The position numbers were made by a program, and so were the translations under genes. From Pyrinomonadaceae bacterium (GTDB taxonomy: Bacteria; Acidobacteriota; Blastocatellia; Pyrinomonadales; Pyrinomonadaceae), in assembly GCA_035606195.1 (NCBI GenBank), contig DATNFX010000313.1, forward strand, positions 1 through 61,504: 61,504 bases of DNA. Direction: 5' to 3'. A model generated the notes under the pieces. It was not told where the DNA came from. It did no database searches and saw nothing but the letters and a program-made list of their open reading frames with translations. Below, piece after piece: positions 46,995-61,504 of this stretch (position 1 is its first letter; every line of letters begins with the position of its first letter).

Positions 46995-47112
46995 TTTGTC
47001 TGATTTCAGACTCAGTCCGATTCACGACAGACAGCAACGTCTCAGGTTGGGTAGAAAGGGGCGGCTCTGACTAATAGATGTTCTATCCGAGGACTCGCTC
47101 CGACCTCCCCAG
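46995..47112 (+). promoter_or_regulatory. conserved leader element, copy B (paralog of 9282-9400), containing TGTCT-N6-AGACT
   Basis: Same conserved blocks as copy A, in the same order and orientation. Sits in the 433-nt gap between the NRPS stop (46902) and the MbtH-like gene. Confidence 0.6.
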
Positions 47113-47270
47113 TAGAGAGAAAGCCCTGAGCAACTACGTAGTACCTATGTTGTTGTGTGGACACTTCATGCTTACGAGCTCTCGGTAATTAGAACAAGCC
47201 TGCGGACGACTTGTCCGAGTAGGCATCCACACATTTTGTCTTCTCATTTAAGATGCCACTTGGCTTCGGA

Positions 47271-47289
47271 TGCGGTAGCTGTGCCGGCC
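47271..47289 (+). promoter_or_regulatory. ops-like box TGCGGTAGCTGTGCCGGCC (copy 2)
   Basis: 17/19 identical to 10291-10309 and contains GCGGTAGC. Lies 65 nt upstream of ATG 47336. Confidence 0.5.
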
Positions 47290-47335
47290 ACTTGCAATTG
47301 CAGATTTCGCACAAAATAAAATCGGAGGGAAAAAG

Positions 47336-47569
47336 ATGGACCGAGATGACGCAGAAGATCAAACAATCTATAAAGTTGTGCTCAACCACGAAGAGCAGTA
47401 CTCGATTTGGCCTGCCGATCGCGAGAATGCACTCGGTTGGTTTGACGCCGGTAAAACCGGTATGAAGGCCGAATGTCTGGAGTACATCAAAGAGGTCTGG
47501 ACTGACATGAGACCTCTGAGCCTGCGCAAGCATATGGAGGAAGCTGCCGCAAAGCAGTCGAGCGCGTAG
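47336..47569 (+). CDS. mbtH: MbtH-like protein
   Basis: 77 aa. GGAGGG RBS at 47324-47329. Hallmark [24 protein letters not shown]...AECLEYI with the conserved Trp residues. Confidence 0.9.
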
Positions 47570-47655
47570 CCCGGCATGAACTCCTGAGCTCGATCGTTTA
47601 CGCTGCGCCTACCCGCACCCACCTGAGTTGTTTAAGTTCCACAACGGTAAAGACA

Positions 47656-48657
47656 ATGAAAAAGTTTGCCAATGTTGCGGCTTCGCCTGCTCCTGTGAGC
47701 GCTAATAGTTTCAAAGACGAAACGAAGATCCGGCATCTGCTTTCGATCCACGACTGCACGCCGGGTCAGTTACGAAAGCTCGTCGAAACGGCAGTCGCTT
47801 TCGCGGCCGGAGAGGAGATTGGTCACTCTTCTCTGAGCGGGAGCACGGTTGGCATCTATTTTCGTCGTGCCTCTACGCGCACGCGGACGTCATTCTCAGT
47901 GGCCGCGCATCGCCTCGGGGCGAAAACAATTCACTATGGACCATCCGATCTACAACTCACAACCGGCGAAACTGTTGAGGACACCACCAGGGTGTTGTCC
48001 GGTTTTCTTAAAGCACTCGTTATTCGTACCAACGACTCAGTTTCTGAAATGGAGCTCTTTGCAACGCAGCACAGGATGCCCGTTATCAATGCCATGAGTG
48101 AGAACGAGCATCCCACGCAGGCGATTGCGGATCTGGCGGCGATGCGAGAGACGTTGGGCCGGCTCGAAGACGTTCACGTGCTTTATCTGGGCGAGGGAAA
48201 CAACACGGCAGCGTCATTAGCGTTTGGCATTGCGATGTTTGCAGGAATGAGACTTACGCTGGTGACTCCTGCCGGTTATGGATTGGCTGACGCTCAACTT
48301 GAGACCGCAAAAATAATGGCACGCAAGACCGGAGCTGAGATCGAACAGCACCACCGGATCGATCGGTTACCGCGTAACGTTGACGTCGTCTACACCACGA
48401 GATGGCAGACGATGGGAGTGCCTAAGGCGGACCCCGATTGGAAGGCGAAGTTCAGACCTTACAGCGTGACCCTGGAGCTCATGGCGAACGTCTCAAAACC
48501 TTCAGGCACGATCTTTCTTCACGACTTGCCGGCCGTGCGCGGAGACGAAGTAACGAACGAAGTCCTTGATGGACCGCAAAGCAAGGCTTTCCGGCAAGCT
48601 GAATACAAACTGTTTGGAGCGATGGCAACGCTCTGCTGGTGTGTTGGTGACCTCTGA
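47656..48657 (+). CDS. carbamoyltransferase of the ATC/OTC superfamily with non-canonical second-substrate motifs
   Basis: Carbamoyl-phosphate motifs STRTR and HPTQ are present. The OTC-like GEGNNTAASL is present. However, DxxxSMG is replaced by TRWQTMG and HCLP by HDLP. Confidence 0.8.
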   Translation: MKKFANVAASPAPVSANSFKDETKIRHLLSIHDCTPGQLRKLVETAVAFAAGEEIGHSSLSGSTVGIYFRRASTRTRTSFSVAAHRLGAKTIHYGPSDLQLTTGETVEDTTRVLSGFLKALVIRTNDSVSEMELFATQHRMPVINAMSENEHPTQAIADLAAMRETLGRLEDVHVLYLGEGNNTAASLAFGIAMFAGMRLTLVTPAGYGLADAQLETAKIMARKTGAEIEQHHRIDRLPRNVDVVYTTRWQTMGVPKADPDWKAKFRPYSVTLELMANVSKPSGTIFLHDLPAVRGDEVTNEVLDGPQSKAFRQAEYKLFGAMATLCWCVGDL

Positions 48658-48736
48658 ACCGGATCTTCTCTGAGGCTTGCACCAGAGAATAAGCACCTTC
48701 ATGCAATCGAACCCAAAGCTAAAGGAGCCGCTCTCG

Positions 48737-49558
48737 ATGTCAATCACTGACGAGCAGTTGCGCGAGTATGGAGACCGCGGTCTTCTGTTTCTGCCCGGTT
48801 ATTTCTCCGCTGCCGAAGTTGACATTATGAAAGCGGAGCTTCCTCACCTCTTCGCCGCCACCTCATTGGGAAAAGTCATGGAAGACGGAGGCCGTGACGT
48901 GCGTTCCGTATATGGAGCACAGTTCACTAGTAAGACTTTCCAACGGCTAACAAGGCATGCGCGAATCGCAGAGCCGATCATGAAAATTCTCGACAGCCAG
49001 GTGTACGTCTACCAGTTTAAGATCAACGCCAAGGCAGCGTTCGGTGGTGATATTTGGGAGTGGCACCAGGATTACATCTACTGGCAGAAAGAGGATGGCA
49101 TGCCGTCAGCTCGTGCCTCCAACGTCATAATTTTTCTCGATGACGTGAATGAATTCAACGGACCTTTGTTCTTCATCCCCGGCTCACACAAGGAAGGCGT
49201 GATTGAAACGCCGGTCTGTGACCCCGGGCCAGAAGTCAGCAACGAGAACAACCCGGGCTGGCTCTCTTCCCGGCTCAAGTACGCTCTTGATCGGGGGACG
49301 GTCGCGCAACGAATCGCCACCTACGGCATTATCGCACCCAAGGGTCCCGCGGGTTCAATGCTCTTTACACATCCGAATATCATTCATTGCTCGCCTAGTA
49401 ACATGTCTCCTTTTGATCGCGTCGTCGCGATCATCACCTACAACAGCGTCGAGAATATTCCCACTCAAACCAATCAGCGACCGGAGTTCCTGTCCAGTCG
49501 CGACTTGACACCCGTTGTGCCGTTGCCTGAAGACAGTTGGGCCAAAGCGGCGTACTGA
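48737..49558 (+). CDS. PhyH/EctD-like Fe(II)/2-oxoglutarate hydroxylase
   Basis: AAGGAG at 48722-48727 lies 9 nt before ATG 48737; the track start 48677 is possible. IWEWHQDYIYWQKEDGMP resembles the EctD signature F-x-WHSDFETWH-x-EDG-M/L-P. HxD (WHQD) and a distal His (NIIHCSP) are present. Confidence 0.8.
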   Translation: MSITDEQLREYGDRGLLFLPGYFSAAEVDIMKAELPHLFAATSLGKVMEDGGRDVRSVYGAQFTSKTFQRLTRHARIAEPIMKILDSQVYVYQFKINAKAAFGGDIWEWHQDYIYWQKEDGMPSARASNVIIFLDDVNEFNGPLFFIPGSHKEGVIETPVCDPGPEVSNENNPGWLSSRLKYALDRGTVAQRIATYGIIAPKGPAGSMLFTHPNIIHCSPSNMSPFDRVVAIITYNSVENIPTQTNQRPEFLSSRDLTPVVPLPEDSWAKAAY

Positions 49559-49576
49559 GCACGATCAGATAACGAG

Positions 49577-51982
49577 ATGATGGAACAATCGGCTGCAGCT
49601 ACCGCTGAGGCTTGCGAACCTGTTTCGGCGGACTCAGCGAACACACCGGCGCATTTGATCAGGCTTGACGAAACGTGGGCGCTGTGGCGTTGGGTCGGTC
49701 TCAGAGGTGCGGGGTTTCCGATTGCTCAGCTCTCAAAACTAGCCGCGCCGGAGACAGCCAAGGCGGCGGACGCAATTCTGGAAGCAGAAAGCGCAGGCAA
49801 CAACGGACGCGAACAACCAGCACCGCTCTGGTCCGATTTCAAGGCAAACTTCAAAGCGGAAGCTTTGCTAATTTCGCAGGCAATCAAGGATGCGGCGACG
49901 TCGAAAACTTTTCGTGAGGCAATCATTTGGCAGAACCGAAACGCATTACACGGCAGCATTGAAGCTTTGCTCCGCATGCCGGAGCAGCGCGACGTCGGAG
50001 TGAGAGACCGGCGGCGGCGCGAAGAGGCGGTCGCCAGTTACGTCCAGCGTTATTGTGCGAAGAATGACACCATTGGCTTTTTCGGACCCGTCGGCTGGGC
50101 CGAGCTTGCTTCAACGGGAGATTTGATTCAAGCGCAACCCGGTGAGACGCTGCTGGCGCAACGTGATGTGTACTTCGAAGTCTGGTGTATTGACAAGTTG
50201 GCCCAGGTGCTCGCGGCAAATGGTACGTCTCGCGAGTGGATTGCGCCACGCCGCGCTTCTTACATCGATCTCGCGGGAACTCGCCTGTATTTACCGTCGC
50301 GTGGAGCGATCAATCTGCCGCTCAACGAGGCTGCTGCACTAAGAGCATGTGACGGTTGCCGAACTGCTAAAGAGATCGCGAAAGTGCTCGTCGCCAATCC
50401 TCTGATTGGAATCAAAAGTGCGGCAGAAGCATACGCCCTACTTGAGAAGCTTGAGCAACGGGCATGGATTGTCTGGAAGTTCGAAGTTCCGATGGAACTA
50501 TTTCCAGAACGGACTCTGCGTCGAGGCCTTGAGCAAATTGCCGACGACGCAAAGCGGGAACTTTCATTAGCCGCACTCACCGAGCTTGAGTTGGCCCGTG
50601 ATTGCGTTGCGAGAGCGGCTGGCGACGATCAAGAGTTAGACGCGGCGATTGGAAATCTGGAAGAAACGTTTACGCGATTGACCGGCTCGGCCTCGACGCG
50701 ATCGCCAGGAGAGATGTATGCGGCGAGGACGCTGGTTTACGAGGATTGCCGCCGTGATCTAGATCTCGAGCTCGGCCCACAAGTCACGGCTTCTTTGGCG
50801 CCGTCTCTTTGCCTGCTTCTGACGAGCGCAAGGTGGTTTAGTTACCAGATCGCCAACATCGCGAGAGGTTGGTTTAATAAGTTGTACGCCGAAATCTCCG
50901 CACGCACGCGATCGCGGACGATTGACTTCACAACTTTCTGGTATCAAATCTCGCCACTAGTGTTGACCGATCAACGCGCACCGCTCAACGTGGTACTGCT
51001 CGAAGTCCAGAAGAAGTGGGACCAAATACTCTCTTTGCCGGCTGGAACAAGCCGCGTCGAATATACGAGCGAAGAGCTTCGCGAAGCAGTCGCTACGGCG
51101 TTCGACTCACCACGCGCCGGATGGGAAGCGGCGATCTATCACAGTCCGGACATCATGATCGCAGCGGAAAGCATCGACGCAATTCGGCGCGGTGATTATC
51201 AGTTCGTTTTGGGCGAGATACACGCAACGGTCAACACTATAGGCACCCATGTTTTTGTCGAGCATCATCCGCAGCCCCGAGAGTTCTTGCGCAATTTCGT
51301 TTTGGATCGGGCTGAACCGAAGGCAGTGCCGCTCGTACCTAAGGTGGTTTGGCCGTCGCAGTCTTCACGTCTGATGCCGGTTTATTCTCCGCATGACTAT
51401 ATTATTGAGTTTGTGCCCGAACCTGCCGACGTGCCTCACTCGCAGATAGTCCAGTTCGGTTCGCTGGTCGTTGAGGATCAGGGCAAGGGGCCGATGGTCC
51501 GCACCCGCGATGGAAGGTTGCAGTTCGATCCGTTGGACCTACTCACTGTTACACCAACTCTGAGCGTCGGAAACGATTTCAAGCTGCTTGCCCGGGTGAA
51601 ACACCGGCCGAGAATTACGATCGATCGGCTGGTGGTCGAGCGCGAGACATGGTGTTTCCAAGCTGCGGAAATCGAGTTCGCCGAGGAAAAAGACGAAGCC
51701 TCGCGATTTCTGGCAGCGCGACGTTGGGCCCGTGAGCAAGGCATGCCGCGATTTGTTTTTATAAAATCGCCGATTGAAGTCAAACCGGTATTCGTGGATT
51801 TTGACAGTCCTGTCTACCTCAACATCCTGAGTAAAATGGTGCGCAAAGGCCTCAGGAATGATTGTTCGGACTTCGTCTTCACGGAGATGCTTCCGACTCC
51901 GGGGCAATGTTGGTTGCCTGACGCAAATGGTCAAAAGTATGCGAGCGAGTTGAGGTTTATTGCGGTGGATCTAGGTTATTAG
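49577..51982 (+). CDS. small LanB-like protein (lantibiotic-dehydratase N-terminal/glutamylation-type domain only)
   Basis: 801 aa. LIRLDETWALWRWVGLRGAGFP, FREAIIWQN and VQRYCAKNDTIGFFGPVGWAEL resemble conserved N-terminal blocks of LanB / split LanB / PEARL proteins. No SpaB_C-type elimination domain recognised. Called from memory of the family, not from a search. Confidence 0.6.
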   Translation: MMEQSAAATAEACEPVSADSANTPAHLIRLDETWALWRWVGLRGAGFPIAQLSKLAAPETAKAADAILEAESAGNNGREQPAPLWSDFKANFKAEALLISQAIKDAATSKTFREAIIWQNRNALHGSIEALLRMPEQRDVGVRDRRRREEAVASYVQRYCAKNDTIGFFGPVGWAELASTGDLIQAQPGETLLAQRDVYFEVWCIDKLAQVLAANGTSREWIAPRRASYIDLAGTRLYLPSRGAINLPLNEAAALRACDGCRTAKEIAKVLVANPLIGIKSAAEAYALLEKLEQRAWIVWKFEVPMELFPERTLRRGLEQIADDAKRELSLAALTELELARDCVARAAGDDQELDAAIGNLEETFTRLTGSASTRSPGEMYAARTLVYEDCRRDLDLELGPQVTASLAPSLCLLLTSARWFSYQIANIARGWFNKLYAEISARTRSRTIDFTTFWYQISPLVLTDQRAPLNVVLLEVQKKWDQILSLPAGTSRVEYTSEELREAVATAFDSPRAGWEAAIYHSPDIMIAAESIDAIRRGDYQFVLGEIHATVNTIGTHVFVEHHPQPREFLRNFVLDRAEPKAVPLVPKVVWPSQSSRLMPVYSPHDYIIEFVPEPADVPHSQIVQFGSLVVEDQGKGPMVRTRDGRLQFDPLDLLTVTPTLSVGNDFKLLARVKHRPRITIDRLVVERETWCFQAAEIEFAEEKDEASRFLAARRWAREQGMPRFVFIKSPIEVKPVFVDFDSPVYLNILSKMVRKGLRNDCSDFVFTEMLPTPGQCWLPDANGQKYASELRFIAVDLGY

Positions 51983-51992
51983 GAGAGCAGAC

Positions 51993-54338
51993 ATGGCCCA
52001 GTCGTCGGTATCAGTAAAAGCCGGTCCGGTGGTGTCCGCCAAGCCGTTCGATAGCGCCGCACTTTTTAATGTCCTTAGCTTGCTGTTCGTCGTCTTTGTA
52101 GTGTTTGTCGCTGTACACCTGCAAAAGGCGCCGGCAGCGGTACCACAAAGCGCTCCGCTGGATGTTTTCTCTTCGGGCCGTGCAATGAATGATCTCAAGG
52201 TCATTGCTGCTGGTCCACGTCCTATCGGAACAGCTCAACAGGCGGCAGTAAGACAGCATATCGTTCAGCGCTTGAGCAGCCTGGGTCTCGAGCCGCAGGT
52301 GCAAACGACCACCGCCGTTAATAGCGCCTACAGTCAGGCCGGAACAGTAAACAACATCGTTGCGAGAATAAAAGGCTCGAATGGCGCCAAAGCGTTGGTG
52401 CTGTCAACGCACTACGACTCTGTGCCGTACGGTCCCGGCGCGAACGACGCGGGCACTGCCGTTGCCGCCTTACTCGAAACCGCGCGCGCGTTGAAAACCG
52501 GTGGGCTGCTAAAGAACGACCTGATCTTCCTGTTTACCGATGGTGAGGAAACTGGACTTCTGGGCGCGCAGGCTTTCGCGAGCGAGCACCCCTGGGCCAA
52601 AGACGTTGGTTTGGTTTTGAACTTCGAGGCGCGCGGCAACACGGGTCCTTCAATAATGTTCGAGAGCAGTAATAATAATGCCTGGCTAATCGACGGTTTG
52701 GACCAGGCGGCGCCCGCTCCAATATCCAACTCTCTGGCGAATGAAGTCTACCGGCTCTTGCCCAACGATACGGATCTGACAGTATTCAAAAAGGCGGGCT
52801 GGGCGGGTCTGAACTTTGCTTACATCGATGGCCTGACACATTATCATACGCGCCTCGATGACCTCGGAAACACAGATGAGCGTAGTTTGCAGCATCAAGG
52901 TTCTTACGCGCTCGCACTCGCGCGATATTTTGGCAATGTCGACCTGACGCGCGGCGGTCAGGGCAATGCTGTGTACTTCAATATCCTCGGCACTGCGTTG
53001 CTTCATTACTCTTATGCATGGAACATCCCGCTGGCCATCTTCACTCTGCTAATCACGATCGCGGTTTTAACTATCGGAATTCGTAAAGGTGAGCTAACGC
53101 TGCGAGGTATTGCGTGGGGGACACTGACCTTCGTAGTCGCACTTGCCGTGAGCTGGTTCGTCGTGACGGGTTTGTGGTGGTTGATAAACCTGGTGGCGAA
53201 TTGGACTGGTTCGATATTTCAGAACAGAGCCTCTCGCAGTGAGTACTATTTTTTAAGTTTCGTGGCGCTGTCCGCGGCACTGTTTGCGGGCATGATCCAA
53301 TGGTTACGAAAGAAAACTGCGGATGCAAACCTGTTCGCGGGAGTTTTGGTTTTATATGCGTTACTGCTGTTACCCGCGACGTTGTTCCTCCCGGGCGTGA
53401 GTTATCTTTTTGTCTGGCCGCTGCTGGGTGCAGCCGTGTCGCTACTAATCGCCTTCGTGACTACTGACAAGGAAAGCGAATCACCACAACGACTTGGCAT
53501 TCTCACGCTCGGCGCGCTGCCTGGTCTGCTCCTCCTTGCTCCAACAGTCTACTTCTTGTATACCGCTCTGGTTTTGAGTATGCCGGCGGTATTGATTGTC
53601 CTGGCGGTGTTAGCGCTTGGTTTGTTGGCGCCCGCTCTGGCGCTGCCGGCAGTTTCAAAGCGATGGCTATTGCCGGTCGGTCTCGCAATCGCCGGCGTGG
53701 TGTTGCTGGCTATCGCTGGTTTGAACTCCAACTTCGACCACGACCAACCGCAAAAATCAGATCTCTTTTATGCCATGAACGCCGGCACCGGCAAAGCCAT
53801 TTGGGCCAGTGCGGACGTCCGGCTAAACGACTGGACCCGGCAATTCCTCGCGCAGGGAAACAGAGGAGACGTCAATCAATTCTTTCCCTCGCGCAATCGC
53901 TCGTTTCTACAAAGCGAGGCGCCTGCGATCCAGGAACCAGCGCCTGGCCTGCAAGTGCTGAAAGATGAAAACGGTTCTGACGTTCGCCGAGTGCAGTTAA
54001 AAATTACCTCGCCGCGTCAGGCCCCGAGCCTTGTAGTCTTTGTCGATGCCGACGTGCTGAAGGCAACAGTCAACGGCAGAGAAATTACGACTCCAGCCTC
54101 TCTGCGTGTTGGATCTGGTAGCGGTTGGTCCATGCAGTACAGCGGGACGCCTGTCGAAGGCTTTGATCTAGCGCTTGAGTTAAAACCATCGCAGCCGCTC
54201 AAGATCACGATAGTTGACCGCACCGATGGCTTGCCACAGTCATTAATTGGGAATTTCAAGTCACGCCCTGCTGACTTGGCGCCGTCTTCAAACCCATTCA
54301 GTGATGCGACTTTCATAAGCCGCTATTTCACACTCTGA
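51993..54338 (+). CDS. membrane-embedded M28-family metallopeptidase
   Basis: AGGAGAG RBS overlaps the upstream stop. M28 motifs STHYDSVPYGPGANDAGTAVAALLE and LFTDGEETGLLGA. N-terminal anchor plus a block of ~8 hydrophobic helices (about aa 330-560) and a C-terminal soluble domain. Confidence 0.8.
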   Translation: MAQSSVSVKAGPVVSAKPFDSAALFNVLSLLFVVFVVFVAVHLQKAPAAVPQSAPLDVFSSGRAMNDLKVIAAGPRPIGTAQQAAVRQHIVQRLSSLGLEPQVQTTTAVNSAYSQAGTVNNIVARIKGSNGAKALVLSTHYDSVPYGPGANDAGTAVAALLETARALKTGGLLKNDLIFLFTDGEETGLLGAQAFASEHPWAKDVGLVLNFEARGNTGPSIMFESSNNNAWLIDGLDQAAPAPISNSLANEVYRLLPNDTDLTVFKKAGWAGLNFAYIDGLTHYHTRLDDLGNTDERSLQHQGSYALALARYFGNVDLTRGGQGNAVYFNILGTALLHYSYAWNIPLAIFTLLITIAVLTIGIRKGELTLRGIAWGTLTFVVALAVSWFVVTGLWWLINLVANWTGSIFQNRASRSEYYFLSFVALSAALFAGMIQWLRKKTADANLFAGVLVLYALLLLPATLFLPGVSYLFVWPLLGAAVSLLIAFVTTDKESESPQRLGILTLGALPGLLLLAPTVYFLYTALVLSMPAVLIVLAVLALGLLAPALALPAVSKRWLLPVGLAIAGVVLLAIAGLNSNFDHDQPQKSDLFYAMNAGTGKAIWASADVRLNDWTRQFLAQGNRGDVNQFFPSRNRSFLQSEAPAIQEPAPGLQVLKDENGSDVRRVQLKITSPRQAPSLVVFVDADVLKATVNGREITTPASLRVGSGSGWSMQYSGTPVEGFDLALELKPSQPLKITIVDRTDGLPQSLIGNFKSRPADLAPSSNPFSDATFISRYFTL

Positions 54339-54364
54339 GAGGCTTTGCACAAAAATTACGGTCT

Positions 54365-54686: not shown

Positions 54687-57600
54687 ATGACAGTCAGTGT
54701 AAGCCCGGTCTCCGAAGAGAGGACACGGAATAGCATCGCTCGTAATCTGGTTGAACTCCTGATCTCGAGAGCGCAGGAGCAGCCGGATCGCGTGGCCTAT
54801 ACGTTTGTCGCGCAGGATGGCGCCGAAGAGCTCAGCGTCACCTACGAGGAGCTCGATCAAAAAGCCAGAAAGATCGCAGCAGCGATTCGGACGCGGGAAC
54901 TCAGCGGCGCGCACGTTTTGTTGGTTTATCCATTTGGACTCGAATACGTCGCAGCCTTCTTCGGCTGTTTGTATGCCGGTGCGGTCGCAGTGCCTGCGTA
55001 TCCGCCTCGTTCGAACCGCAACGTGACGCGGTTGAGATCGATCATCGTCGACGCGCAAGCGCGACTAATCCTCACCACAGAGACGTTGCGCAGCAGGCTC
55101 GAAAGTCTCTTGGGTGAAGAGTGCGATCTCGAGTGTTTGATCACGCCAGGCATTGACGATCGACTCGCTGAGGATTGGACGCCTGATCCAATCGATGGCG
55201 ATAGCGTGTGTCTTCTTCAGTACACGTCTGGCTCAACTTCGATACCGCGCGGCGTGCTGGTGACGCACAGTAACCTTTTGCACAATGAAGCACTGATTGC
55301 CGAAGCGTTCGAGCAGCGGCCTGAGTCAGTGATTGTGAGCTGGTTGCCGCTTTACCACGATATGGGGCTGATTGGGGGCGTGTTGCAGCCACTCTATCTG
55401 GGTGCGCGCTGCATACTTTTCTCGCCGTTGAGTTTCCTGCAACGTCCTTCCTTGTGGCTTGAACTGATCACGCGCTATCGCGCAACGACGAGCGGTGGGC
55501 CAAATTTCGCCTACGATTTATGTTTGCGAAAGATTCCGGCGGAAGCGCGCGCGACGTTTGATCTTCGCAGTTGGCAGGTCGCGTTCAATGGCGCTGAACC
55601 CGTGCGGCAGGAAACGCTCGAACGATTTGCTGAAGCATTTGCGCCCGCGGGATTCCGGCAGGAGGTTTTCTTCCCTTGTTATGGCCTCGCAGAGGCGACT
55701 TTGCTTGTTTCCGGAGGCAAGGCGAAAGACGCCGCACCGGTTATCAAGCCATTGCAGAGCAGTGAACTCGAACGAAACCGGGTCGTCGAGGGAAGGCCTG
55801 ACGAAGGACTGCGATATCTCGCCAGTTGTGGCATCCATGCGCGCGGACAAAAGGTTGTTGTGGTCAATCCCGAAACTCTGTTTGAGTGCCCGCGCGGGGA
55901 AATTGGCGAAGTGTGGGTGGCTGGGCCAAGTGTAGCGCTCGGTTATTGGAACCAGCCCGATCTGACGGCACAGACTTTCCGCGCTTATCTCTCCGGCACT
56001 GGCGCAGGACCTTTCTTACGCACTGGAGATCTCGGCTTTGTCGATGATGGAGAACTATTCATCACGGGCCGGCTAAAGGATCTCGTCATCGTTCGCGGTC
56101 TGAACTACTACCCACAGGACATCGAACTGGTGGCCGAGCATTGCCATCCGTCATTGCGTGCCGGTTGCGGCGCTGCGTTCACCGCTGACGTTGAAGGCGC
56201 CGAAGAGTTGGTTGTTGTGTACGAGGTGGATCGCCGTCGCACGGTCGAGATTGACAAAGTGCTCGTGGCAATTCACGAAGCGATTGCAGAAGAACTGGAG
56301 CTACAGGTTTCGACTGTTCTCCTGACAACGACTGGTTCGATACCAAAGACCTCGAGCGGGAAGATTCAACGAAGTCTTTGCCGCGAAATGTTTTTGGCGG
56401 GCGAGTTGAAGACAGTGGGTGCGTGGAGTGCGCGTTCGGGGCCCGGCGCCGTCGCTGGTGCTGACGATGTTGAGTCGATCGAGGAGTGGCTGATAAAGCA
56501 ACTGGCGCAGAGACTCGGTGTAGAACGATCGAGCATCGACGTCGAGCAGCCGATCGTGCGCTACGGGATTGATTCACTGGCGGCAGTAGAGTTGGCCCAC
56601 CTGATCGAGAGCCGCTTTGGGATCGTCGTGCCCATGGTTCGCTTTCTCCAGGATTCTTCTGTTCGTGAGTTGGCTACCTTTGCGCGGTCACAGCCGGAGG
56701 GGCCCGAGTTCTCCGCCGAGGATTTTCAACATTCAGAACAGCCGTTGTCTTCCGGGCAGCAATCTCTCTGGTTCATGCAAAAGCTGGCGCCGGAAAGCAC
56801 GGCCTACAACCTGGCCCGCGCGTTCCGAGTGAGGTCTCGGCTGGACCAGGAGGCGTTGCGGCGAGCGTTGAAAAAGTTAGTTGCTCGCCACGCTGCGCTT
56901 CGTACTACGTTCCACGAATCGCATGGCCGGCCGGTGCAAAGGATTCATGAGTTCGCGGAGATCTCTTTCCACGAGCTTGACGCCTTATCGATGAGCGAAC
57001 TTGCTTTTCAAGAGCGACTCACTGAAGAAACTAAAAAGCCGTTCAATCTCGAAACCGGGCCGCTGCTGCACGTGACTCTCTTTCGGAGAGCGCATGACGA
57101 GCACGTCCTGCTAATCGTAATTCATCACATCGTCTCTGATTTTTGGTCGTTCGCGCTTGTCATGAAAGAGCTGAGCGCGCTATATGCGGCAGAGGTAAAT
57201 GGTCAGGTTGCTAAGCTCGATCCGCTGCACGGGCAGTACGCGGAGTACGTAGCATCGCAGACCGATTTTATTGTTAACGGCAGGGGCCGATGTTGCGAGG
57301 AGTACTGGCAGCAGCAGCTCTCGGGCGAGTTGCCTCGGCTCAATCTACCTGGCGCTAATCCACGCCCGGCATTCAAGACGTTCGCCGGCCGATCGGCACT
57401 TTTAAAGTTCGACGCGGATTTTGGAGCACGCGTCAAAGCTCTCAGTAAAGAGTACGGCGCGACTCCGTACATGATCTTACTGGCGGGCTTCTACACGTTG
57501 CTGCACCGGCTCACGGGTGAGCACGATTTGATCGTTGGCACACTTACTTCGGGGAGAAGTCGTCCGCAGTTTGCCGGCAACGTTGGTTATTTTGTTAATC

Positions 57601-60023
57601 CGCTACCGCTGCGGGCCGATCTCAGTGGTCAGCCAACGTTCGCCGGCGTAATGCAACGCATGCGCGCGCTTGTATTGTCTGCATTTGAGCACCAGGACTG
57701 GCCCTTTCCGCAACTCGTCAACCAGGTACAACCACAACGCGATCCGGCGCGGTCGCCGATCTTCGACGTTGTGTTCGTGCTTCAGAAAACGCAATTGTTG
57801 GACGATCAGGATCTCTCTGCTTTTGCACTCGAACAGCCCGGAGCGCAATTGGAATTGAATGGATTGCGGCTTGAAACCGTGCCGCTGGAGAGTTGCACTG
57901 CTCAGTTCGATCTCATGCTTCTGATGGCGGAAACAGAGGCGGGAATAGTTGGGCGACTGGAGTACAACTCCGATCTCTACGAGCCGGAAGTAATCGAACG
58001 AATGCGAGCGCAGTACGAGCGGTTGCTGCGTGAAGCAGTTAGTGCGCCCTCGCACCGTGTGTCGCAGTTGCCCTTGCTCGGTGAGGCGGAGAAACAGCAG
58101 TTACTGGTGAATTGGAACCCGGGTGGAGCAGCACCCAATCAAGGACGCACGCTGAACGAAATGTTTTGGGCGCAGGCGCAACGAACACCTGAGGCGGTGG
58201 CGGTGCGTGGCCGGAATGGCGAGGGACTGAGTTATGCCGCTCTCGAAACGCAAGCTCGCGTGGTAGCTGAGTATCTGCGGCGGCAGGGGATTGGACCAGA
58301 GCAGTTAGTGGGAGTTTGTCTGCAACGCACGCCACAGTTGCTGGTTGGATTGCTGGGAATTCTGGAAGCCGGAGCCGCGTACGTCCCGTTAGATCCGCAT
58401 TATCCGAGTGAACGGCTGCGTTGGATGCTGGCCGACGCGGGAGCGAAATGGGTGTTGACTGAAGAAGCACTCATGGAAACAGTCCGCGCTATTGGCAGTG
58501 AAAGTGAAAGCATCAATCTGGATGCACTGTTGTCGGGATTGCCTGAACCGGCAGCCGAAGGTGCGAGCGGAGTCGCGCCGGCGAATCTCGCATATGTGCT
58601 TTACACGTCTGGATCCACGGGCAGGCCGAAGGGAGTCATGCTGACGCATGAGAGTGCAGTCGCGTTGCTGGGCTGGGCCCATGAGCAGTATGACGCAGCA
58701 GAGTTGAGCGCGGTGCTGGCGAGCACGTCAATCTGTTTCGACTTGTCTATCTTCGAACTGTTTGTGCCGCTGACGTGTGGCGGGACAGTCGTGCTGGTTG
58801 AAAACGTGCTGGAGCTGGGCGAGCTGAGGGGACGCGATGAGGTGCGATTAATCAACACGGTGCCTTCGGCGATGAAGGAGTTGTTGCGATTGCACGGGGC
58901 GTCGGGGAGTGTTCAAGTTGTGAATCTTGCTGGTGAAACGCTCGACGGCGGGCTGGTTGGAGAAATCTACGAACAGTTGCCGCATGTGAAAGCTGTTTGG
59001 AACCTGTATGGGCCAACAGAGGACACCACCTACTCGACGGGAGGAGTAGTTGAGCGCGGGACCGCAAGGCCGAATATCGGCCGAGTGCTGGCTGGAGAAC
59101 GGCTCTACATTGTCGATGCGCAGCAGCAGTTGAGGCCGATTGGCGCCACCGGGGAAGTGGTGTTGGGCGGCGTTGGGCTGGCGCGGGGTTATTTAGGCCG
59201 GCCGGAGATGACAGCGGAGCGGTTTGTACCCGACGGCATCAGTGGCGAGGCCGGAGCGCGTTTGTATCGCACGGGAGATCTCGGGCGGTATCAGCGCGAT
59301 GGCGCAGTCGAGTTTCTGGGGCGAATGGACCAGCAAATGAAACTGCGTGGATTTCGAATTGAGTTGGAGGAGATAGAGTCGGCCTTGCTGGGCCACGATT
59401 GGGTGAGTGAAGCCGCGGTCGTTGCGCAAACAGTGATCAAAGAGCAACGGCTGGTGGCCTATGTGGCGCTGACTGGAGCGGTTGATCGGAGCGTGAGTGA
59501 AGTGACGGAGGAGTTGCAAGGCCATCTTTCCGGGCTGTTGCCGGAGTTCATGTTGCCCGCGGCGTTGCTGGTGTTGCCTGCACTGCCGCGCACACCCAAC
59601 GGAAAGTTGGATCGAAAACAGTTACCGCCGGTCACGGAGTGGGGGGCGCCGCATACGCCTGACGCCAGCCTGCCCTTGAACCCCGTTGAGCAGTTGGTGG
59701 CGGAAATCTGGAGCGAGGTGTTGGGTCGCAGTGTAGTCGGTGCGGAGGACAACTTCTTCGCACTGGGTGGCCATTCGTTACTGGCAACTCAGGTGCTGTC
59801 GCGTTTGCGAGAAACCTTTGCCGTCGATCTTCCACTGCGAGTGATGTTTGAAGCACCGGTGCTCTCGGCGCTGGCGCGGACTGTTCAAGAACGGCTCAAT
59901 GGCGAGCAGGCTTCGCGCAAGTCTGCCGAAACGGTCAAGCGAGCGAGCCGCGATCTCTATCGCGTGAAATTGACCGGAACAGAGCAATTGACATTGCCCG
60001 AGAGCGTGAAGCGTTTCTTGTGA
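54687..60023 (+). CDS. second lipoinitiation NRPS: FAAL-ACP-C-A-T
   Basis: 1778 aa, collinear with the first ~1750 aa of the 10356 gene. FAAL LQYTSGSTSIPRG; ACP GIDSL; C HHIVSDF (57123); A YTSGSTGRPKG; T FFALGGHSLL. Confidence 0.95.
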   Translation: MTVSVSPVSEERTRNSIARNLVELLISRAQEQPDRVAYTFVAQDGAEELSVTYEELDQKARKIAAAIRTRELSGAHVLLVYPFGLEYVAAFFGCLYAGAVAVPAYPPRSNRNVTRLRSIIVDAQARLILTTETLRSRLESLLGEECDLECLITPGIDDRLAEDWTPDPIDGDSVCLLQYTSGSTSIPRGVLVTHSNLLHNEALIAEAFEQRPESVIVSWLPLYHDMGLIGGVLQPLYLGARCILFSPLSFLQRPSLWLELITRYRATTSGGPNFAYDLCLRKIPAEARATFDLRSWQVAFNGAEPVRQETLERFAEAFAPAGFRQEVFFPCYGLAEATLLVSGGKAKDAAPVIKPLQSSELERNRVVEGRPDEGLRYLASCGIHARGQKVVVVNPETLFECPRGEIGEVWVAGPSVALGYWNQPDLTAQTFRAYLSGTGAGPFLRTGDLGFVDDGELFITGRLKDLVIVRGLNYYPQDIELVAEHCHPSLRAGCGAAFTADVEGAEELVVVYEVDRRRTVEIDKVLVAIHEAIAEELELQVSTVLLTTTGSIPKTSSGKIQRSLCREMFLAGELKTVGAWSARSGPGAVAGADDVESIEEWLIKQLAQRLGVERSSIDVEQPIVRYGIDSLAAVELAHLIESRFGIVVPMVRFLQDSSVRELATFARSQPEGPEFSAEDFQHSEQPLSSGQQSLWFMQKLAPESTAYNLARAFRVRSRLDQEALRRALKKLVARHAALRTTFHESHGRPVQRIHEFAEISFHELDALSMSELAFQERLTEETKKPFNLETGPLLHVTLFRRAHDEHVLLIVIHHIVSDFWSFALVMKELSALYAAEVNGQVAKLDPLHGQYAEYVASQTDFIVNGRGRCCEEYWQQQLSGELPRLNLPGANPRPAFKTFAGRSALLKFDADFGARVKALSKEYGATPYMILLAGFYTLLHRLTGEHDLIVGTLTSGRSRPQFAGNVGYFVNPLPLRADLSGQPTFAGVMQRMRALVLSAFEHQDWPFPQLVNQVQPQRDPARSPIFDVVFVLQKTQLLDDQDLSAFALEQPGAQLELNGLRLETVPLESCTAQFDLMLLMAETEAGIVGRLEYNSDLYEPEVIERMRAQYERLLREAVSAPSHRVSQLPLLGEAEKQQLLVNWNPGGAAPNQGRTLNEMFWAQAQRTPEAVAVRGRNGEGLSYAALETQARVVAEYLRRQGIGPEQLVGVCLQRTPQLLVGLLGILEAGAAYVPLDPHYPSERLRWMLADAGAKWVLTEEALMETVRAIGSESESINLDALLSGLPEPAAEGASGVAPANLAYVLYTSGSTGRPKGVMLTHESAVALLGWAHEQYDAAELSAVLASTSICFDLSIFELFVPLTCGGTVVLVENVLELGELRGRDEVRLINTVPSAMKELLRLHGASGSVQVVNLAGETLDGGLVGEIYEQLPHVKAVWNLYGPTEDTTYSTGGVVERGTARPNIGRVLAGERLYIVDAQQQLRPIGATGEVVLGGVGLARGYLGRPEMTAERFVPDGISGEAGARLYRTGDLGRYQRDGAVEFLGRMDQQMKLRGFRIELEEIESALLGHDWVSEAAVVAQTVIKEQRLVAYVALTGAVDRSVSEVTEELQGHLSGLLPEFMLPAALLVLPALPRTPNGKLDRKQLPPVTEWGAPHTPDASLPLNPVEQLVAEIWSEVLGRSVVGAEDNFFALGGHSLLATQVLSRLRETFAVDLPLRVMFEAPVLSALARTVQERLNGEQASRKSAETVKRASRDLYRVKLTGTEQLTLPESVKRFL

Positions 60024-60068: not shown

Positions 60069-61504
60069 ATGAGTTTGATGGAAGCTGATCTGACGGAGAG
60101 GGAAGTCCACGTCTTTCCTACCTCCCTGGCCCAGCAGCGACTCTGGTTTCTAAATCAATTAGAACCGGACAGCGTGGCCTACAATATTAGTTTCGCCATT
60201 CGAATCGCCGGCGACCTCAAGGTGCATGCGCTTGAAAAAAGCCTGCGCGCCCTCGTAAACCGCCACGAGATTCTGCGGACCACGTTTTGCGCTGTTGAGG
60301 GACGACCGGTGCAGGTCGTTGCTCCTCACGCCGAATTGATCCTGCCGATTATCGATATCAGCGGCTGGCCGAAAGCTGTACGCGAAGATCGCGCGCGGGG
60401 ATTGGCGCGCGACGAGGCGCAGCGACTGTTCGATCTTGCTCGTGGTCCACTGCTTCGTACCACGCTGCTGCGATTAGCGGAAGCTGAGTGCATCTTGTTG
60501 CTCAGTATGCATCACATCGTCGCCGACGGATGGTCTATGAACGTCTTCGTCAATGAGACGGCCGCACTCTACGATAGTTTCAGACGAGACGAATCGTCGC
60601 CGCTCGCAGAGTTGCCGCTTCAGTATTCCGACTATTCGATCTGGCAGCGAGAGTGGCTCGAGAGCGGGGCAGCCGAATCTCAACTTTCATACTGGCGGCA
60701 GCATTTGAACAGTAGACCGGCGCTACTCGACCTGCAGTTCGATCATCCACGCACCGCGGTTGAATCCTCTCCGGGACTCAAGCAGTCGATTGTTCTGGAT
60801 GCGGAACTTACCGAACGTCTGCGGAGATTGAGCCGGCAGGAACACGTCACGATCTTCATGACGCTGCTCGCCGCGTTCCAAACGTTGCTTTACCGCTACA
60901 CGAACCAGGTAGATATCAGCGTTGGATCTACCATCGCCGGTCGCGATCGGAAAGAAATTGAGGGCCTCATCGGCTGCTTCCTCAATACGCTCGTGCTACG
61001 GACAGATCTTTCCGGCGATCCGACTTTCCGCGAACTGCTGCATCGCGTGCGTGAAGTGGCGCTCGCGGCTTATGCGAACCAGGACGTGCCGGTCGAGATG
61101 TTGTTGGATGAACTTCGGCCTGAGCGGCATCTCAATCTCAATCCACTCTTCCAGGTGATGTTCATTCTCCAGAACACGCCACACACTCAGTTACAACTCG
61201 CGGACGTCACGCTTAGCCTGCTGCCGAATGACTACAGCACGCCGAAGTTTGATCTGACACTTGATCTGACCGAAAGGCCTCAAGACATTTCTGGTTTCAT
61301 CGAGTACCGGACGGAGCTGTTCGAGACAGAGAGCATCGCCCGCTTTGCGCAACAGTTCCGGACGCTGCTGGGGGCGATTGTAGAGTGTCCTGAGAGGCGG
61401 GTGTCGCAGCTGCGGCTGCTGACGGCAGCGGAGGAGCAGCAGTTGCTGGTGGAGTTTGCTTCGTCAGGGAAGAGCGCGGGCGGTTCCTCCGGTCTTTGTT
61501 TGCA
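60069..61504 (+). CDS. NRPS (partial, runs off the window): C domain and start of an A domain
   Basis: ATG 60069. SLAQQRLWFLNQLEP, HHIVADGWS, then the C-A linker LLTAAEEQQLLVEF. The frame is open to the window end, so it is absent from the ORF track. Confidence 0.9.
   Translation, partial: MSLMEADLTEREVHVFPTSLAQQRLWFLNQLEPDSVAYNISFAIRIAGDLKVHALEKSLRALVNRHEILRTTFCAVEGRPVQVVAPHAELILPIIDISGWPKAVREDRARGLARDEAQRLFDLARGPLLRTTLLRLAEAECILLLSMHHIVADGWSMNVFVNETAALYDSFRRDESSPLAELPLQYSDYSIWQREWLESGAAESQLSYWRQHLNSRPALLDLQFDHPRTAVESSPGLKQSIVLDAELTERLRRLSRQEHVTIFMTLLAAFQTLLYRYTNQVDISVGSTIAGRDRKEIEGLIGCFLNTLVLRTDLSGDPTFRELLHRVREVALAAYANQDVPVEMLLDELRPERHLNLNPLFQVMFILQNTPHTQLQLADVTLSLLPNDYSTPKFDLTLDLTERPQDISGFIEYRTELFETESIARFAQQFRTLLGAIVECPERRVSQLRLLTAAEEQQLLVEFASSGKSAGGSSGLCL

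What the first reader, a model, noticed from the sequence alone, without database searches (positions are those of the whole stretch)
49577..51982. Small LanB-like (glutamylation-type) enzyme without an elimination partner or precursor peptide in an NRPS-PKS cluster
The 801-aa protein carries N-terminal blocks reminiscent of lantibiotic dehydratase N-domains. Its length matches split LanBs and PEARLs rather than full-length LanB (~1000 aa). These enzymes use aminoacyl-tRNA. Split LanBs glutamylate Ser/Thr ahead of elimination, while PEARLs append amino acids to a peptide C-terminus. I saw no SpaB_C-type elimination protein, no LanC, and no obvious small precursor-peptide gene in the window.

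A tRNA-dependent enzyme working with a thiotemplate assembly line would be unusual. It might form Dha/Dhb on the NRP, or supply the A-less T module or the orphan terminal C domains.

The family call is from memory and needs an HMM check.
Basis: partly seen in the sequence, partly recalled or inferred. Interest (0 to 1): 0.7.

Follow-up and report, generated by a model that had tools for sequence, protein, structure and literature searches.

The report
tRNA-dependent amide ligase in NRPS cluster
The gene is real, but by its sequence signatures it is not a lantibiotic dehydratase: it looks like a PEARL-type enzyme that adds an amino acid from a charged tRNA to a nonribosomal peptide, a kind first described in 2024 (SnaE), so this is a new example rather than a new principle.

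Summary
ORF 49577-51982 (801 aa) matches Pfam Lant_dehydr_N only (E 1.4e-34). Its model folds like the TbtB, NisB and MibB glutamylation domains. The window has no elimination domain, no LanC, no tRNA gene and no conserved small ORF.

The sequence signatures are those of PEARLs (ATP- and aminoacyl-tRNA-dependent amide ligases), not dehydratases. It has Y-x-Q-R-x3-K-N-D-T (residues 155-165) and a C-terminal E791-x-R793. Of eleven published reference enzymes it is closest to SnaE, the only characterised NRPS-associated PEARL.

SnaE extends the free carboxylate left when a ureido-forming condensation (Curea) domain, signature EHHxxHDG, reverses the chain. The window has no such domain. However, a contig 99.97% identical to window 54617-61504 runs past the window end. 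It shows the next NRPS to be C-A-T-Curea(EHHLVHDG)-A-T-C, about 2.2 kb beyond the end. Two related clusters (PEARL 76% and 54% identical) have the same layout.

The Dha/Dhb idea is argued against, and the A-less-module idea has nothing for it. The missing partner is a window-edge effect.

Novelty: a new member of a known kind, from a large, almost unstudied family found mostly in Acidobacteriota.

The parts
49577..51982 (+). PEARL-type (SnaE-like) LanB-N-only protein, 801 aa
   Evidence: PF04738 only. TbtB-like fold. PEARL motifs are invariant in the 30-sequence family alignment. Closest to SnaE in the published blocks.
50039..50083 (+). Residues 155-169, YVQRYCAKNDTIGFF: the helix that in PEARLs binds the tRNA 3' end (BhaB7 Y205/R208 equivalents), followed by KNDT
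   Evidence: Y155, Q157, R158, K162, N163 and D164 are invariant in A1. They match the PEARL rows, not the LanB rows, of Fig. S12 in PMC11212132. The roles of Y205/R208 are taken from PMC11962472.
51947..51955 (+). E791-L-R793: C-terminal E-x-R motif, required in TglB (E801/R803) for ATP-dependent phosphorylation of the substrate carboxylate
   Evidence: Invariant in A1. Aligns with SnaE 'SELRFVAV'. Function of the TglB/BhaB7 residues.
50258..50476 (+). Residues 228-300: RRE-like (PqqD-like) winged-helix region, possibly vestigial
   Evidence: Strand and three-helix pattern in the model. Weak profile hit to PqqD 5sxy, E 0.13, not significant. PEARL RREs were reported as dispensable.
47336..47569 (+). 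MbtH-like protein
   Evidence: PF03621, E 8.6e-20.
47656..48657 (+). Divergent ornithine-carbamoyltransferase-like protein (HDLP instead of HCLP, TTRWQTMG instead of the DxxxSMG loop)
   Evidence: Pfam OTCace_N/OTCace. Below every NCBIfam equivalog cut-off. The same variant motifs occur in the OTC-like genes next to PEARL genes in 7 other distinct loci.
48677..49558 (+). PhyH/ectoine-hydroxylase-like Fe/2OG dioxygenase
   Evidence: PF05721, E 6e-26. TIGR02408 scores 152.8 bits, below its cut-off of 336.5.
51993..54338 (+). Membrane-anchored M28 metallopeptidase, 781 aa
   Evidence: PF04389, E 2.5e-47. The hydrophobic central region is visible in the translation. The same two-part protein lies near PEARL genes in 5 other loci. 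It is absent from the 76%-identical cluster L001.
54687..60023 (+). NRPS5: FAAL-ACP-C(starter, IHHIVSDF)-A(code DLFNNALTYK, Ala-like)-T
   Evidence: Pfam and NCBIfam. Motifs. Specificity code read by hand.
60069..61504 (+). Start of NRPS6 (first C domain, MHHIVADG). The gene runs off the window. On contig L086 it continues as C-A-T-Curea(EHHLVHDG at residue 1215)-A-T-C.
   Evidence: PF00668. L086 is 99.97% identical to window 54617-61504, and its domain motifs were read. The Curea motif would lie at about window-equivalent position 63711.

Best explanation
The 801-aa protein is a PEARL-type amide ligase of the SnaE kind, not a dehydratase.

Inferred mechanism, taken from TglB, BhaB and SnaE:
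1. It binds ATP in an ATP-grasp-like site and phosphorylates a free carboxylate on a nonribosomal peptide intermediate.
2. The alpha-amine of an aminoacyl-tRNA attacks the acyl phosphate.
3. The tRNA ester is hydrolysed, which adds one proteinogenic amino acid.

The carboxylate is most likely the one set free by chain reversal in the downstream assembly line. NRPS5 (FAAL-ACP-C-A(Ala)-T) feeds NRPS6 (C-A-T-Curea-A(Val)-T-C...). The Curea domain joins the amine of the residue on the first T domain of NRPS6 to the Val amine through a ureido carbonyl. That leaves the donor residue's carboxylate out of reach of thiotemplate chemistry. The donor A domain has an acidic specificity pocket, which suggests a basic or diamino acid. 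The PEARL then extends the peptide at that point, in the direction opposite to the assembly line.

Shown here: the fold, the PEARL motifs, the absence of elimination, LanC and precursor genes, the presence of a Curea-signature domain in the same gene array, and conserved synteny.

Inferred: ATP and aminoacyl-tRNA use, which carboxylate is extended, and which amino acid is added (unknown).
For: Fold: PF04738 only, and the model matches the TbtB glutamylation domain over its full length.

PEARL-versus-dehydratase motifs: Fig. S12 of PMC11212132 separates the two classes. The window protein has SYVQRYCAKNDTIGFF and SELRFIAV. R43, Y155, Q157, R158, K162, N163, D164, E547, E791 and R793 are invariant in 30 homologues of 45-82% identity.

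Similarity to references: local alignment scores to the published blocks are SnaE 127+77, next best TglB 81.5+44, and dehydratases 26-60 + 15-25.

No RiPP parts: the window has no PF14028 or LanC protein and no tRNA gene. Across 80 loci, the only small ORF conserved within 4 kb of the PEARL gene is MbtH. In a Pfam census of 139 nearest neighbour ORFs, PF14028 and LanC are not among the families hit two or more times.

Curea partner: contig L086 carries the identical NRPS5 protein and is 99.97% identical in DNA to window 54617-61504. It shows NRPS6 with EHHLVHDG at residue 1215. This is the same 9-mer (EHHLVHDGW) as the mutated active site of SnaA. The layout PEARL, then FAAL-ACP-C-A-T, then C-A-T-Curea, recurs at the same spacing (+9124 and +9125 nt) in L001 and L005, whose PEARLs are 76% and 54% identical. 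In L041 and L056 the PEARL gene is followed directly by A-T-Curea, as in sna. C domains with the Curea motif form their own cluster, 60-65% mutual identity against about 40% to other C domains.

Precedent: SnaE adds Thr to the terminal carboxylate of a bis-arginyl ureido intermediate.
Against: No experiment was done, so ATP use, tRNA use and the substrate are all inferred.

The full SnaE sequence could not be retrieved. Similarity to SnaE therefore rests on two published blocks totalling about 96 residues.

In known Curea systems the donor is a loading A-T didomain with a free alpha-amine. Here the donor module has its own intact C domain and is preceded by a lipoinitiation module. Ureido formation would then need a diamino-acid donor or an unusual order of events.

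Only 4 of the 85 related loci, plus this cluster (seen on L086), show a Curea motif within reach. Curea is thus not a general companion of the family. In many loci, though, the 10-kb flank ends before the position where it would be expected.

The gene sits between two lipopeptide-type assembly lines. In the window it is spaced most tightly with the OTC-like, PhyH and M28 genes, not with NRPS5.
Confidence: 0.6

Rival explanations
1. It is a PEARL-type ligase, but it acts on a different carboxylate. Candidates are the C-terminus of a released lipopeptide, a Glu/Asp side chain, or an intermediate linked to the upstream NRPS4, which ends in C-T-C (an A-less module plus a terminal C domain).
For: Most related loci show NRPS genes but no Curea motif within 10 kb. 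The window has no thioesterase domain. NRPS4 ends C-T-C. Two Glu-type A domains are present. All genes from 10356 onward are on one strand behind an RfaH/LoaP-like antiterminator, so the PEARL could serve either line.
Against: The conserved unit across 54-76% identity is the PEARL plus the downstream FAAL-NRPS plus the Curea NRPS, whereas upstream genes vary. In L005 an ABC transporter lies between the upstream NRPS and the PEARL. No enzyme of this family is known to load carrier proteins.
Confidence: 0.2
2. It is a canonical scaffold-type PEARL pathway. The enzyme attaches an amino acid to a carrier, the OTC-like and PhyH-like enzymes tailor it, and the membrane M28 peptidase releases it, as TglG does in 3-thiaglutamate biosynthesis. 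The released product could be a building block for the NRPS. The carrier would be an unrecognised ribosomal peptide or the nonribosomal peptide itself.
For: The OTC-like, PhyH, PEARL and M28 genes are spaced 19, 18 and 10 nt apart. The same OTC-like clade neighbours PEARL genes in 7 other distinct loci, and the same membrane M28 does so in 5 others. TglG is a membrane-associated protease that releases the tailored residue. An RRE-like region is retained.
Against: No conserved small ORF exists other than MbtH. M28 is missing from the 76%-identical cluster L001, and PhyH is found only in the window and L001. The frequent neighbours PALP and OCD suggest supply of free diamino acids instead.
Confidence: 0.1
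3. It is a split LanB-type glutamyl-tRNA-dependent enzyme that glutamylates a Ser/Thr of the nonribosomal peptide. Elimination to Dha/Dhb would be done by another protein or occur spontaneously.
For: It has a Lant_dehydr_N fold, and its best structural match is the split LanB TbtB. NRPS1 has a Ser-type A domain, code DVWHISLVDK.
Against: The window has no PF14028 protein, and it is not among the families hit two or more times in the neighbour census of 78 related loci. The dehydratase motif R-x3-R/K-x-TP[FY]G is replaced by QR-x3-KNDT. The Arg of the E-x-R motif, which dehydratases lack, is invariant.
Confidence: 0.05

Closest known systems
SnaE of Stackebrandtia nassauensis (ADD43711.1), the PEARL-like enzyme of the threopeptin NRPS-PKS cluster (Yu & van der Donk 2024, PMC11212132)
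   Same: Both have only PF04738 and similar size (845 vs 801 aa). Both sit in an NRPS(-PKS) cluster with an MbtH-like protein, without a precursor peptide or elimination domain. The diagnostic blocks are near-identical: AVASYxQRYxxKNDTIGFF and WLPxxxGxxYxSELRFxAV. Both clusters hold a C domain with the same EHHLVHDGW active site.
   Different: Full-length identity is unknown, because the sequence could not be fetched. In sna the Curea donor is a loading A-T and the product is a short bis-arginyl ureidopeptide. Here the donor module is C-A-T behind a FAAL-ACP-C-A-T lipoinitiation module, and the line continues for several more modules. The phylum also differs: the closest relatives here are Acidobacteriota. 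The neighbours differ too (OTC-like, PhyH, M28). The window's clade lacks about 55-70 residues of the helical hairpin after residue 74.
Scaffold-peptide PEARLs (TglB, BhaB1/5/7, AmmB2)
   Same: They share the YxQRxxxKN[DE]T and C-terminal ExR motifs and the N-terminal Arg. The presumed chemistry is the same: ATP-dependent carboxylate phosphorylation, then attack by aminoacyl-tRNA.
   Different: Those enzymes act on the C-terminus of a ribosomal peptide of about 40-50 aa encoded nearby. No such gene is found here or in related loci. Block similarity is clearly lower than to SnaE.
Split LanB glutamylation enzymes (TbtB, 6EC7/6EC8) and full-length class I dehydratases (NisB, MibB, MadB)
   Same: The overall fold is the same (TM 0.59-0.65), and there is a remote sequence relation to TbtB (profile E 2.9e-7). 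The acidic residue equivalent to TbtB E851 / NisB D700 is present (E791).
   Different: There is no elimination domain or partner. The TP[FY]G motif is absent. The Arg of ExR is present. By signature the enzyme is ATP-dependent.

Membership tests
PEARL (peptide aminoacyl-tRNA ligase, LanB-like) | Homology to the LanB glutamylation domain (PF04738) with no elimination domain (PF14028) in the protein or nearby | tested here: met
PEARL (peptide aminoacyl-tRNA ligase, LanB-like) | tRNA 3'-end-binding helix motif Y-x-Q-R-x3-K-N-[DE]-T instead of the dehydratase motif R-x3-[RK]-x-TP[FY]G | tested here: met
   Residues 155-165, YVQRYCAKNDT. Y155, Q157, R158, K162, N163 and D164 are invariant in the family alignment; T165 is nearly invariant (90% or more).
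PEARL (peptide aminoacyl-tRNA ligase, LanB-like) | C-terminal E-x-R needed for ATP-dependent phosphorylation (TglB E801/R803, BhaB7 E813/R815) | tested here: met
   E791 and R793 are invariant.
PEARL (peptide aminoacyl-tRNA ligase, LanB-like) | Third phosphorylation residue (TglB E542 / BhaB7 D558) and N-terminal Arg (TglB R10 / BhaB7 R34) | tested here: inconclusive
   Invariant D525, E547 and R43 are candidates. No reference alignment of these regions was available.
PEARL (peptide aminoacyl-tRNA ligase, LanB-like) | Ribosomally made scaffold peptide encoded in the cluster | tested here: not met
   No conserved small ORF except MbtH. The same is true of SnaE, so this excludes the scaffold-type subclass, not the enzyme class.
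PEARL (peptide aminoacyl-tRNA ligase, LanB-like) | ATP- and aminoacyl-tRNA-dependent amide bond formation | not testable with these tools
   Needs a biochemical assay.
SnaE-type NRPS-associated PEARL | Encoded within an NRPS/PKS cluster | tested here: met
   64 of the 85 related loci have an A domain within 10 kb.
SnaE-type NRPS-associated PEARL | Ureido-forming C domain (EHHxxHDG) in the same cluster, which supplies a free carboxylate | tested here: met
   Absent from the window. Present at NRPS6 residue 1215 on the 99.97%-identical contig L086, about 2.2 kb past the window end. Also present in L001 and L005 at the same spacing. These domains cluster as a distinct subtype.
SnaE-type NRPS-associated PEARL | Closer in sequence to SnaE than to scaffold-type PEARLs or dehydratases | tested here: met
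   Tested on the two published blocks only. A full-length comparison was not possible.
SnaE-type NRPS-associated PEARL | Product carries a tRNA-derived residue on the ureido-terminal carboxylate | not testable with these tools
   Needs product isolation and a gene knockout.
Class I lanthipeptide dehydratase / split LanB (Glu-tRNA glutamylation) | Elimination domain or partner (PF14028), a Ser/Thr-rich precursor peptide, and a LanC or thiopeptide gene set | tested here: not met
Class I lanthipeptide dehydratase / split LanB (Glu-tRNA glutamylation) | R-x3-[RK]-x-TP[FY]G motif, and no Arg two residues after the C-terminal acidic residue | tested here: not met

The most novel reading that the evidence does not exclude
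The PEARL and its conserved companions (the variant OTC-like transcarbamylase, the PhyH-like hydroxylase and the membrane M28 peptidase) may form a module that builds on a nonribosomal branch point. A diamino-acid residue would be acylated on one amine by the lipid-Ala starter and ureido-linked on the other by Curea. Its carboxylate would be extended by a tRNA-derived residue. That residue would then be carbamoylated or hydroxylated and either kept, giving a three-way branched lipo-ureidopeptide, or clipped off by M28. In the second case the lipopeptide would serve as a nonribosomal scaffold for amino-acid tailoring, a thiotemplate analogue of the TglA/TglB/TglG logic.
Probability: 0.12. Interest if true: 0.7.

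Novelty: new member of a known kind. Interest (0 to 1): 0.4.

Why it matters
Only one NRPS-associated PEARL (SnaE) has been characterised, and its authors proposed it as the founder of a wider class. This locus is a second, phylogenetically distant cluster type with the same PEARL plus Curea pairing. That supports a usable rule for genome mining: a Lant_dehydr_N-only gene with KNDT and ExR motifs next to an NRPS with an EHHxxHDG C domain predicts a peptide extended at both ends of a ureido linkage.

The family is large. At least 565 matched stretches in 185,579 GTDB species genomes encode a relative of the query. It is concentrated in Acidobacteriota, Ktedonobacteria, Sorangium and Streptomyces, and the NRPS products of the first two groups are almost unknown.

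There is also a practical point. Automated annotation calls these genes lantibiotic dehydratases, which would mislead product prediction.

Tried and rejected
1. Curea motif in the window. A search for EHHxxHDG in the window's C domains found none. This first looked like a real difference from SnaE. It turned out to be a window-edge effect once contig L086 was read.

2. Fetching SnaE. A protein-database search with the 58-residue published fragment returned nothing, because the word index found no candidate. One capped search was wasted, so no full-length comparison or tree with SnaE, TglB or BhaB could be made.

3. Direct sequence search of the PDB. phmmer gave no hit at E<=1. The family profile hit only TbtB, and only in part. 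The relation to LanBs is therefore shown mainly by Pfam and by fold.

4. Precursor-peptide search. Translated matches of the 54339-54673 intergenic stretch in other loci proved to be a MITE-like repeat that matches on both strands. The first clustering of small ORFs was dominated by shadow ORFs inside coding genes. After those were removed, only MbtH remained.

5. Promoter and terminator scan of 46500-55000. Counts did not differ from shuffled sequence, so it says nothing about operon boundaries.

6. OTC-like gene as a self-resistance copy of OTCase (ArgK-like). I consider this unlikely, because the ornithine-binding motifs are altered in a conserved way. It was not tested.

7. A-domain specificity codes were read by hand from motif anchors. 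The assignments Ser, Ala, Glu and Val rest on my memory of Stachelhaus codes. The donor code DTEDIGTVVK could not be assigned beyond an acidic pocket, which suggests a basic substrate.
Full report
**1. What is at the coordinates**

ORF 49577-51982 (+ strand, ATG start, 801 aa) is present as described.
- Pfam-A gives a single family, PF04738 Lant_dehydr_N: E 1.4e-34, 119.7 bits against a gathering score of 28, in two stretches. Nothing else passes E 0.01.
- No NCBIfam model matches.
- phmmer against all PDB sequences finds nothing at E<=1.
- A profile of 30 family members reaches only TbtB (E 2.9e-7, partial). It also gives a non-significant hit to PqqD over window residues about 228-296, an RRE-like region.
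- An AlphaFold2 model built on those 30 sequences is confident (mean pLDDT 86.2, pTM 0.85).
- Foldseek against the PDB returns the LanB glutamylation fold over the whole length. TbtB 6ec7 scores E 1.8e-25 with TM 0.65 normalised by either length. MadB, MibB, NisB and GodF follow. For the full-length dehydratases only about half of the target is covered, which means the elimination domain has no counterpart here.

**2. What is not there**

All non-overlapping ORFs of 150 aa or more in the window were scanned.

| Coordinates | Assignment |
|---|---|
| 58-1500 | Weak HEAT-repeat match, below the Pfam cut-off; function unassigned |
| 3057-4184 | CarboxypepD_reg protein |
| 4868-6448 (- strand) | Amidase |
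| 7094-7798 (- strand) | DUF7003 protein |
| 8526-9260 | Crp-type regulator |
| 9590-10114 | NusG paralogue of RfaH/LoaP type |
| 10356-20213 | NRPS1: FAAL-ACP-C-A-T-C-A-T-C |
| 20257-22325 | Two TauD dioxygenases |
| 22384-26457 | NRPS2: C-A(FkbM methyltransferase insert)-T |
| 26454-33242 | PKS: KS-AT-KR-DH-ACP-luciferase-like monooxygenase |
| 33421-46902 | NRPS4: C-A(MT)-T-C-A-T-C-A-T-C-T-C |
| 47336-47569 | MbtH |
| 47656-48657 | OTC-like protein |
| 48677-49558 | PhyH-like dioxygenase |
| 49577-51982 | The LanB-N protein |
| 51993-54338 | Membrane M28 peptidase |
| 54687-60023 | NRPS5: FAAL-ACP-C-A-T |
| 60069 to window end | Start of NRPS6 |

- There is no PF14028 (SpaB_C) protein, no LanC and no tRNA gene.
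- Translated comparison of the window's intergenic stretches with related loci found only two short repeated non-coding elements.
- Small intergenic ORFs within 4 kb of the homologous gene in 80 loci were clustered. The only conserved family is MbtH. A first attempt was dominated by shadow ORFs inside coding genes.
- A Pfam census of the 139 nearest non-NRPS neighbour ORFs from 78 loci lists no PF14028 or LanC family among those hit twice or more.

**3. Dehydratase or PEARL?**

The literature search found Yu & van der Donk 2024 (PMC11212132). They characterised SnaE, a 'lantibiotic dehydratase' encoded in an NRPS-PKS cluster that has no precursor peptide. SnaE adds Thr to the carboxylate left at the start of the chain when the C domain of SnaA forms a ureido bond ('chain reversal').

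Their Fig. S12, readable in the supplement, separates the two enzyme classes:

| Feature | Dehydratases | PEARLs and SnaE |
|---|---|---|
| Helix motif | R-x3-R/K-x-TP[FY]G | Y-x-Q-R-x3-K-N-[DE]-T |
| C-terminus | A lone acidic residue | E-x-R, where Glu and Arg are needed for ATP-dependent phosphorylation (TglB E801/R803) |

The PNAS 2025 study of BhaB7 assigns Y205 and R208 of that helix to the tRNA CCA end. It assigns R34, D558, E575, E813 and R815 to ATP, Mg and the substrate carboxylate.

The window protein reads SYVQRYCAKNDTIGFF (residues 154-169) and SELRFIAV (790-797). In an alignment of 30 homologues (45-82% identical to it), R43, Y155, Q157, R158, K162, N163, D164, E547, E791 and R793 are invariant.

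Local alignment against the published fragments of eleven reference enzymes puts SnaE first, with scores of 127 and 77 for the two blocks. TglB follows at 81.5 and 44. The dehydratases score 26-60 and 15-25. By signature the enzyme is a PEARL of the SnaE type. The full SnaE sequence could not be obtained, so this comparison covers about 96 residues only.

**4. The missing partner lies just outside the window**

No C domain in the window carries the Curea signature EHHxxHDG. I looked up the exact NRPS5 protein in public assemblies, which returned contig L086 (JGI Ga0070702_100000259).
- L086 is 99.97% identical to window 54617-61504 and 99.85% identical to 49535-54340, and it continues 6.3 kb further.
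- On it NRPS6 reads C(MHHIVADG, residue 147)-A-T-C(EHHLVHDG, residue 1215)-A-T-C(MHHIVSDG, residue 2293).
- The EHHLVHDGW 9-mer is identical to the SnaA active site that was mutated in the 2024 study.
- Its window-equivalent position is about 63711, which is 2.2 kb past the window end.

The same order recurs at the same spacing in two related clusters: PEARL, then FAAL-ACP-C-A-T, then C-A-T-Curea. In L001 (PEARL 76% identical) the motif is at +9124 nt. In L005 (54% identical) it is at +9125 nt.

In a Gammaproteobacteria MAG (L041) and a Parvularcula MAG (L056), the PEARL gene is followed directly by A-T-Curea, as in sna. The Curea-motif domains from these five loci share 60-65% identity with each other. 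They share about 40% with all other C domains, so they form a distinct subtype rather than sharing the motif by chance.

**5. Likely mechanism**

Specificity codes were read by hand from motif anchors. The assignments rest on Stachelhaus-type rules recalled from memory.
- NRPS5: DLFNNALTYK, Ala-like.
- Donor module before Curea: DTEDIGTVVK. The equivalents are DTEDIGTIVK in L001 and DAEDIGTIVK in L005. Two acidic pocket residues point to a basic or diamino acid.
- Acceptor module: DAFWLGGTFK, Val-like.

The best-supported reading has four steps:
1. A fatty-acyl-Ala starter is passed to the donor residue.
2. Curea bridges an amine of that residue to Val through a carbonyl.
3. The donor's carboxylate is left free.
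4. The PEARL phosphorylates that carboxylate with ATP and couples an aminoacyl-tRNA to it.

The fold, the motifs and the gene arrangement are shown here. The chemistry, the acceptor carboxylate and the identity of the added residue are inferred.

One difference from all described Curea systems is that the donor is normally a loading A-T didomain. Here it is a C-A-T module behind a lipoinitiation module. This implies either a diamino-acid branch point or an unusual order of events.

**6. Family and context**

- The protein search gave 1506 hits among 8000 scored candidates. Most are about 860 aa and 43-50% identical.
They come mostly from Acidobacteriota (Pyrinomonadaceae, Blastocatellia, Terriglobia), Ktedonobacteria, Herpetosiphonaceae, Sorangium and Streptomyces.
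- Of the 85 loci examined, 64 have an A domain and 54 a C domain within 10 kb.
- A Curea motif is visible in 4 of those 85, plus this cluster (seen on L086). In several others the flank ends before the position where it would be expected. The pairing is therefore established for this cluster type, not for the whole family.
- Recurrent non-NRPS neighbours are OCD/mu-crystallin (10) and PALP (5), which together resemble the SbnA/SbnB route to 2,3-diaminopropionate. Others are OTC-like (5 in the census; 8 loci by BLAST, 7 of them distinct), ABC and MFS exporters, TauD and FemAB-like proteins.
- The OTC-like proteins next to PEARL genes form one clade (51-78% identical to the window's). All carry TTRWQTMG-type and HDLPA(V/M)R motifs in place of the ornithine-binding DxxxSMG and HCLP motifs. 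The canonical motifs are quoted from memory.
- The membrane M28 peptidase recurs near PEARL genes in five other loci from three phyla, but it is absent from L001.

These associations leave room for a tailoring or release role on the appended residue. That is the novel reading, and I rate it at low probability.

**7. Verdict**

The finding is real. The dehydration alternative is argued against by the signatures; the A-less-module alternative was not tested and nothing supports it. The 'no partner' puzzle is explained by the window edge. The system is a new member of the SnaE kind of NRPS-associated PEARL, with variant architecture (lipoinitiation, non-loading donor module, OTC-like and M28 companions) and from an under-explored phylum. 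Interest is moderate at 0.4. It is useful for annotation and genome mining and supports the generality proposed in 2024, but it is not a new principle.

Noticed in passing
window 54341-54616 (arms 54333-54355/54602-54624 and 54360-54411/54548-54599): A 276-bp MITE-like insertion with nested inverted repeats (52-nt arms, 92% complementary) sits between the M28 gene and NRPS5. It is absent from the otherwise 99.9%-identical contig L086. Related copies lie in an unrelated intergenic region of L002/L006 (3784-4198).
   Followed up: partly
window 9590-10114 (+): A NusG paralogue of the RfaH/LoaP antiterminator type (TIGR01955 99.5 bits, below its cut-off) lies directly upstream of more than 51 kb of same-strand NRPS/PKS genes. 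This fits processive antitermination of one very long transcription unit.
   Followed up: no
window 47656-48657 (+); L001, L002/L006, L007, L011, L020, L036, L037: A conserved clade of OTC-like transcarbamylases neighbours PEARL genes. STRTR is kept in all but L036 (in L007 the gene is split into two ORFs) and HPTQ in all, but the ornithine-binding motifs are altered (TTRWQTMG, HDLPAVRG). This suggests an amine substrate other than free ornithine. In L020 and L037 the gene order is PALP-PEARL-OCD-OTC.
   Followed up: partly
window 51993-54338 (+); L009, L014, L023, L026, L055: A 781-aa membrane M28 peptidase (N-terminal anchor, M28 domain, polytopic middle, C-terminal domain) recurs near PEARL genes in Acidobacteriota, a cyanobacterium and a Gemmatimonadetes MAG. 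It is missing from the 76%-identical cluster L001. It recalls the membrane protease TglG of the 3-thiaglutamate PEARL pathway.
   Followed up: partly
window 33421-46902 (+), residues about 3480-4493: NRPS4 ends in C-T-C, that is, an A-less module followed by a terminal C domain with an intact MHHIISDG motif. No thioesterase is present in the window, and how this chain is loaded and released is unexplained.
   Followed up: no
window 22384-26457 and 33421-37400 (+): Two Glu-type A domains (codes DAKDLGLVDK and DAKDLGVVDK) each carry an inserted FkbM-family methyltransferase domain. The C domain of NRPS2 has no recognisable HHxxxDG motif.
   Followed up: no
window 26454-33242 (+): The PKS module has the order KS-AT-KR-DH-ACP followed by a C-terminal luciferase-like monooxygenase domain.
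   Followed up: no
window 49577-51982, after residue 74: The window's PEARL clade (P0001-P0004, 800-801 aa) lacks about 55-70 residues of the helical hairpin present in the rest of the family (about 860 aa). In AlphaFold3 models of BhaB7 that helical bundle was proposed, at low confidence, to touch the tRNA anticodon arm.
   Followed up: partly
window 61293-61405 and L086 17920-18032: A 113-bp stretch at the end of the first C domain of NRPS6 is repeated exactly at the end of its third C domain, and contig L086 stops there. This is a module-level repeat that probably breaks assemblies.
   Followed up: no
window 33243-33395; L001 9017-9124: A short intergenic element (translated match of 25 aa, 60% identity) is shared between non-homologous intergenic positions of the window and L001. 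It is probably another small repeat.
   Followed up: no
A2 neighbour census (L002-L085): FemAB-like (3 loci) and LPG_synthase_C (2 loci) proteins lie within 2.5 kb of PEARL genes. These are other families that use aminoacyl-tRNA. OCD/mu-crystallin is the single most frequent neighbour (10 of 139 ORFs).
   Followed up: no
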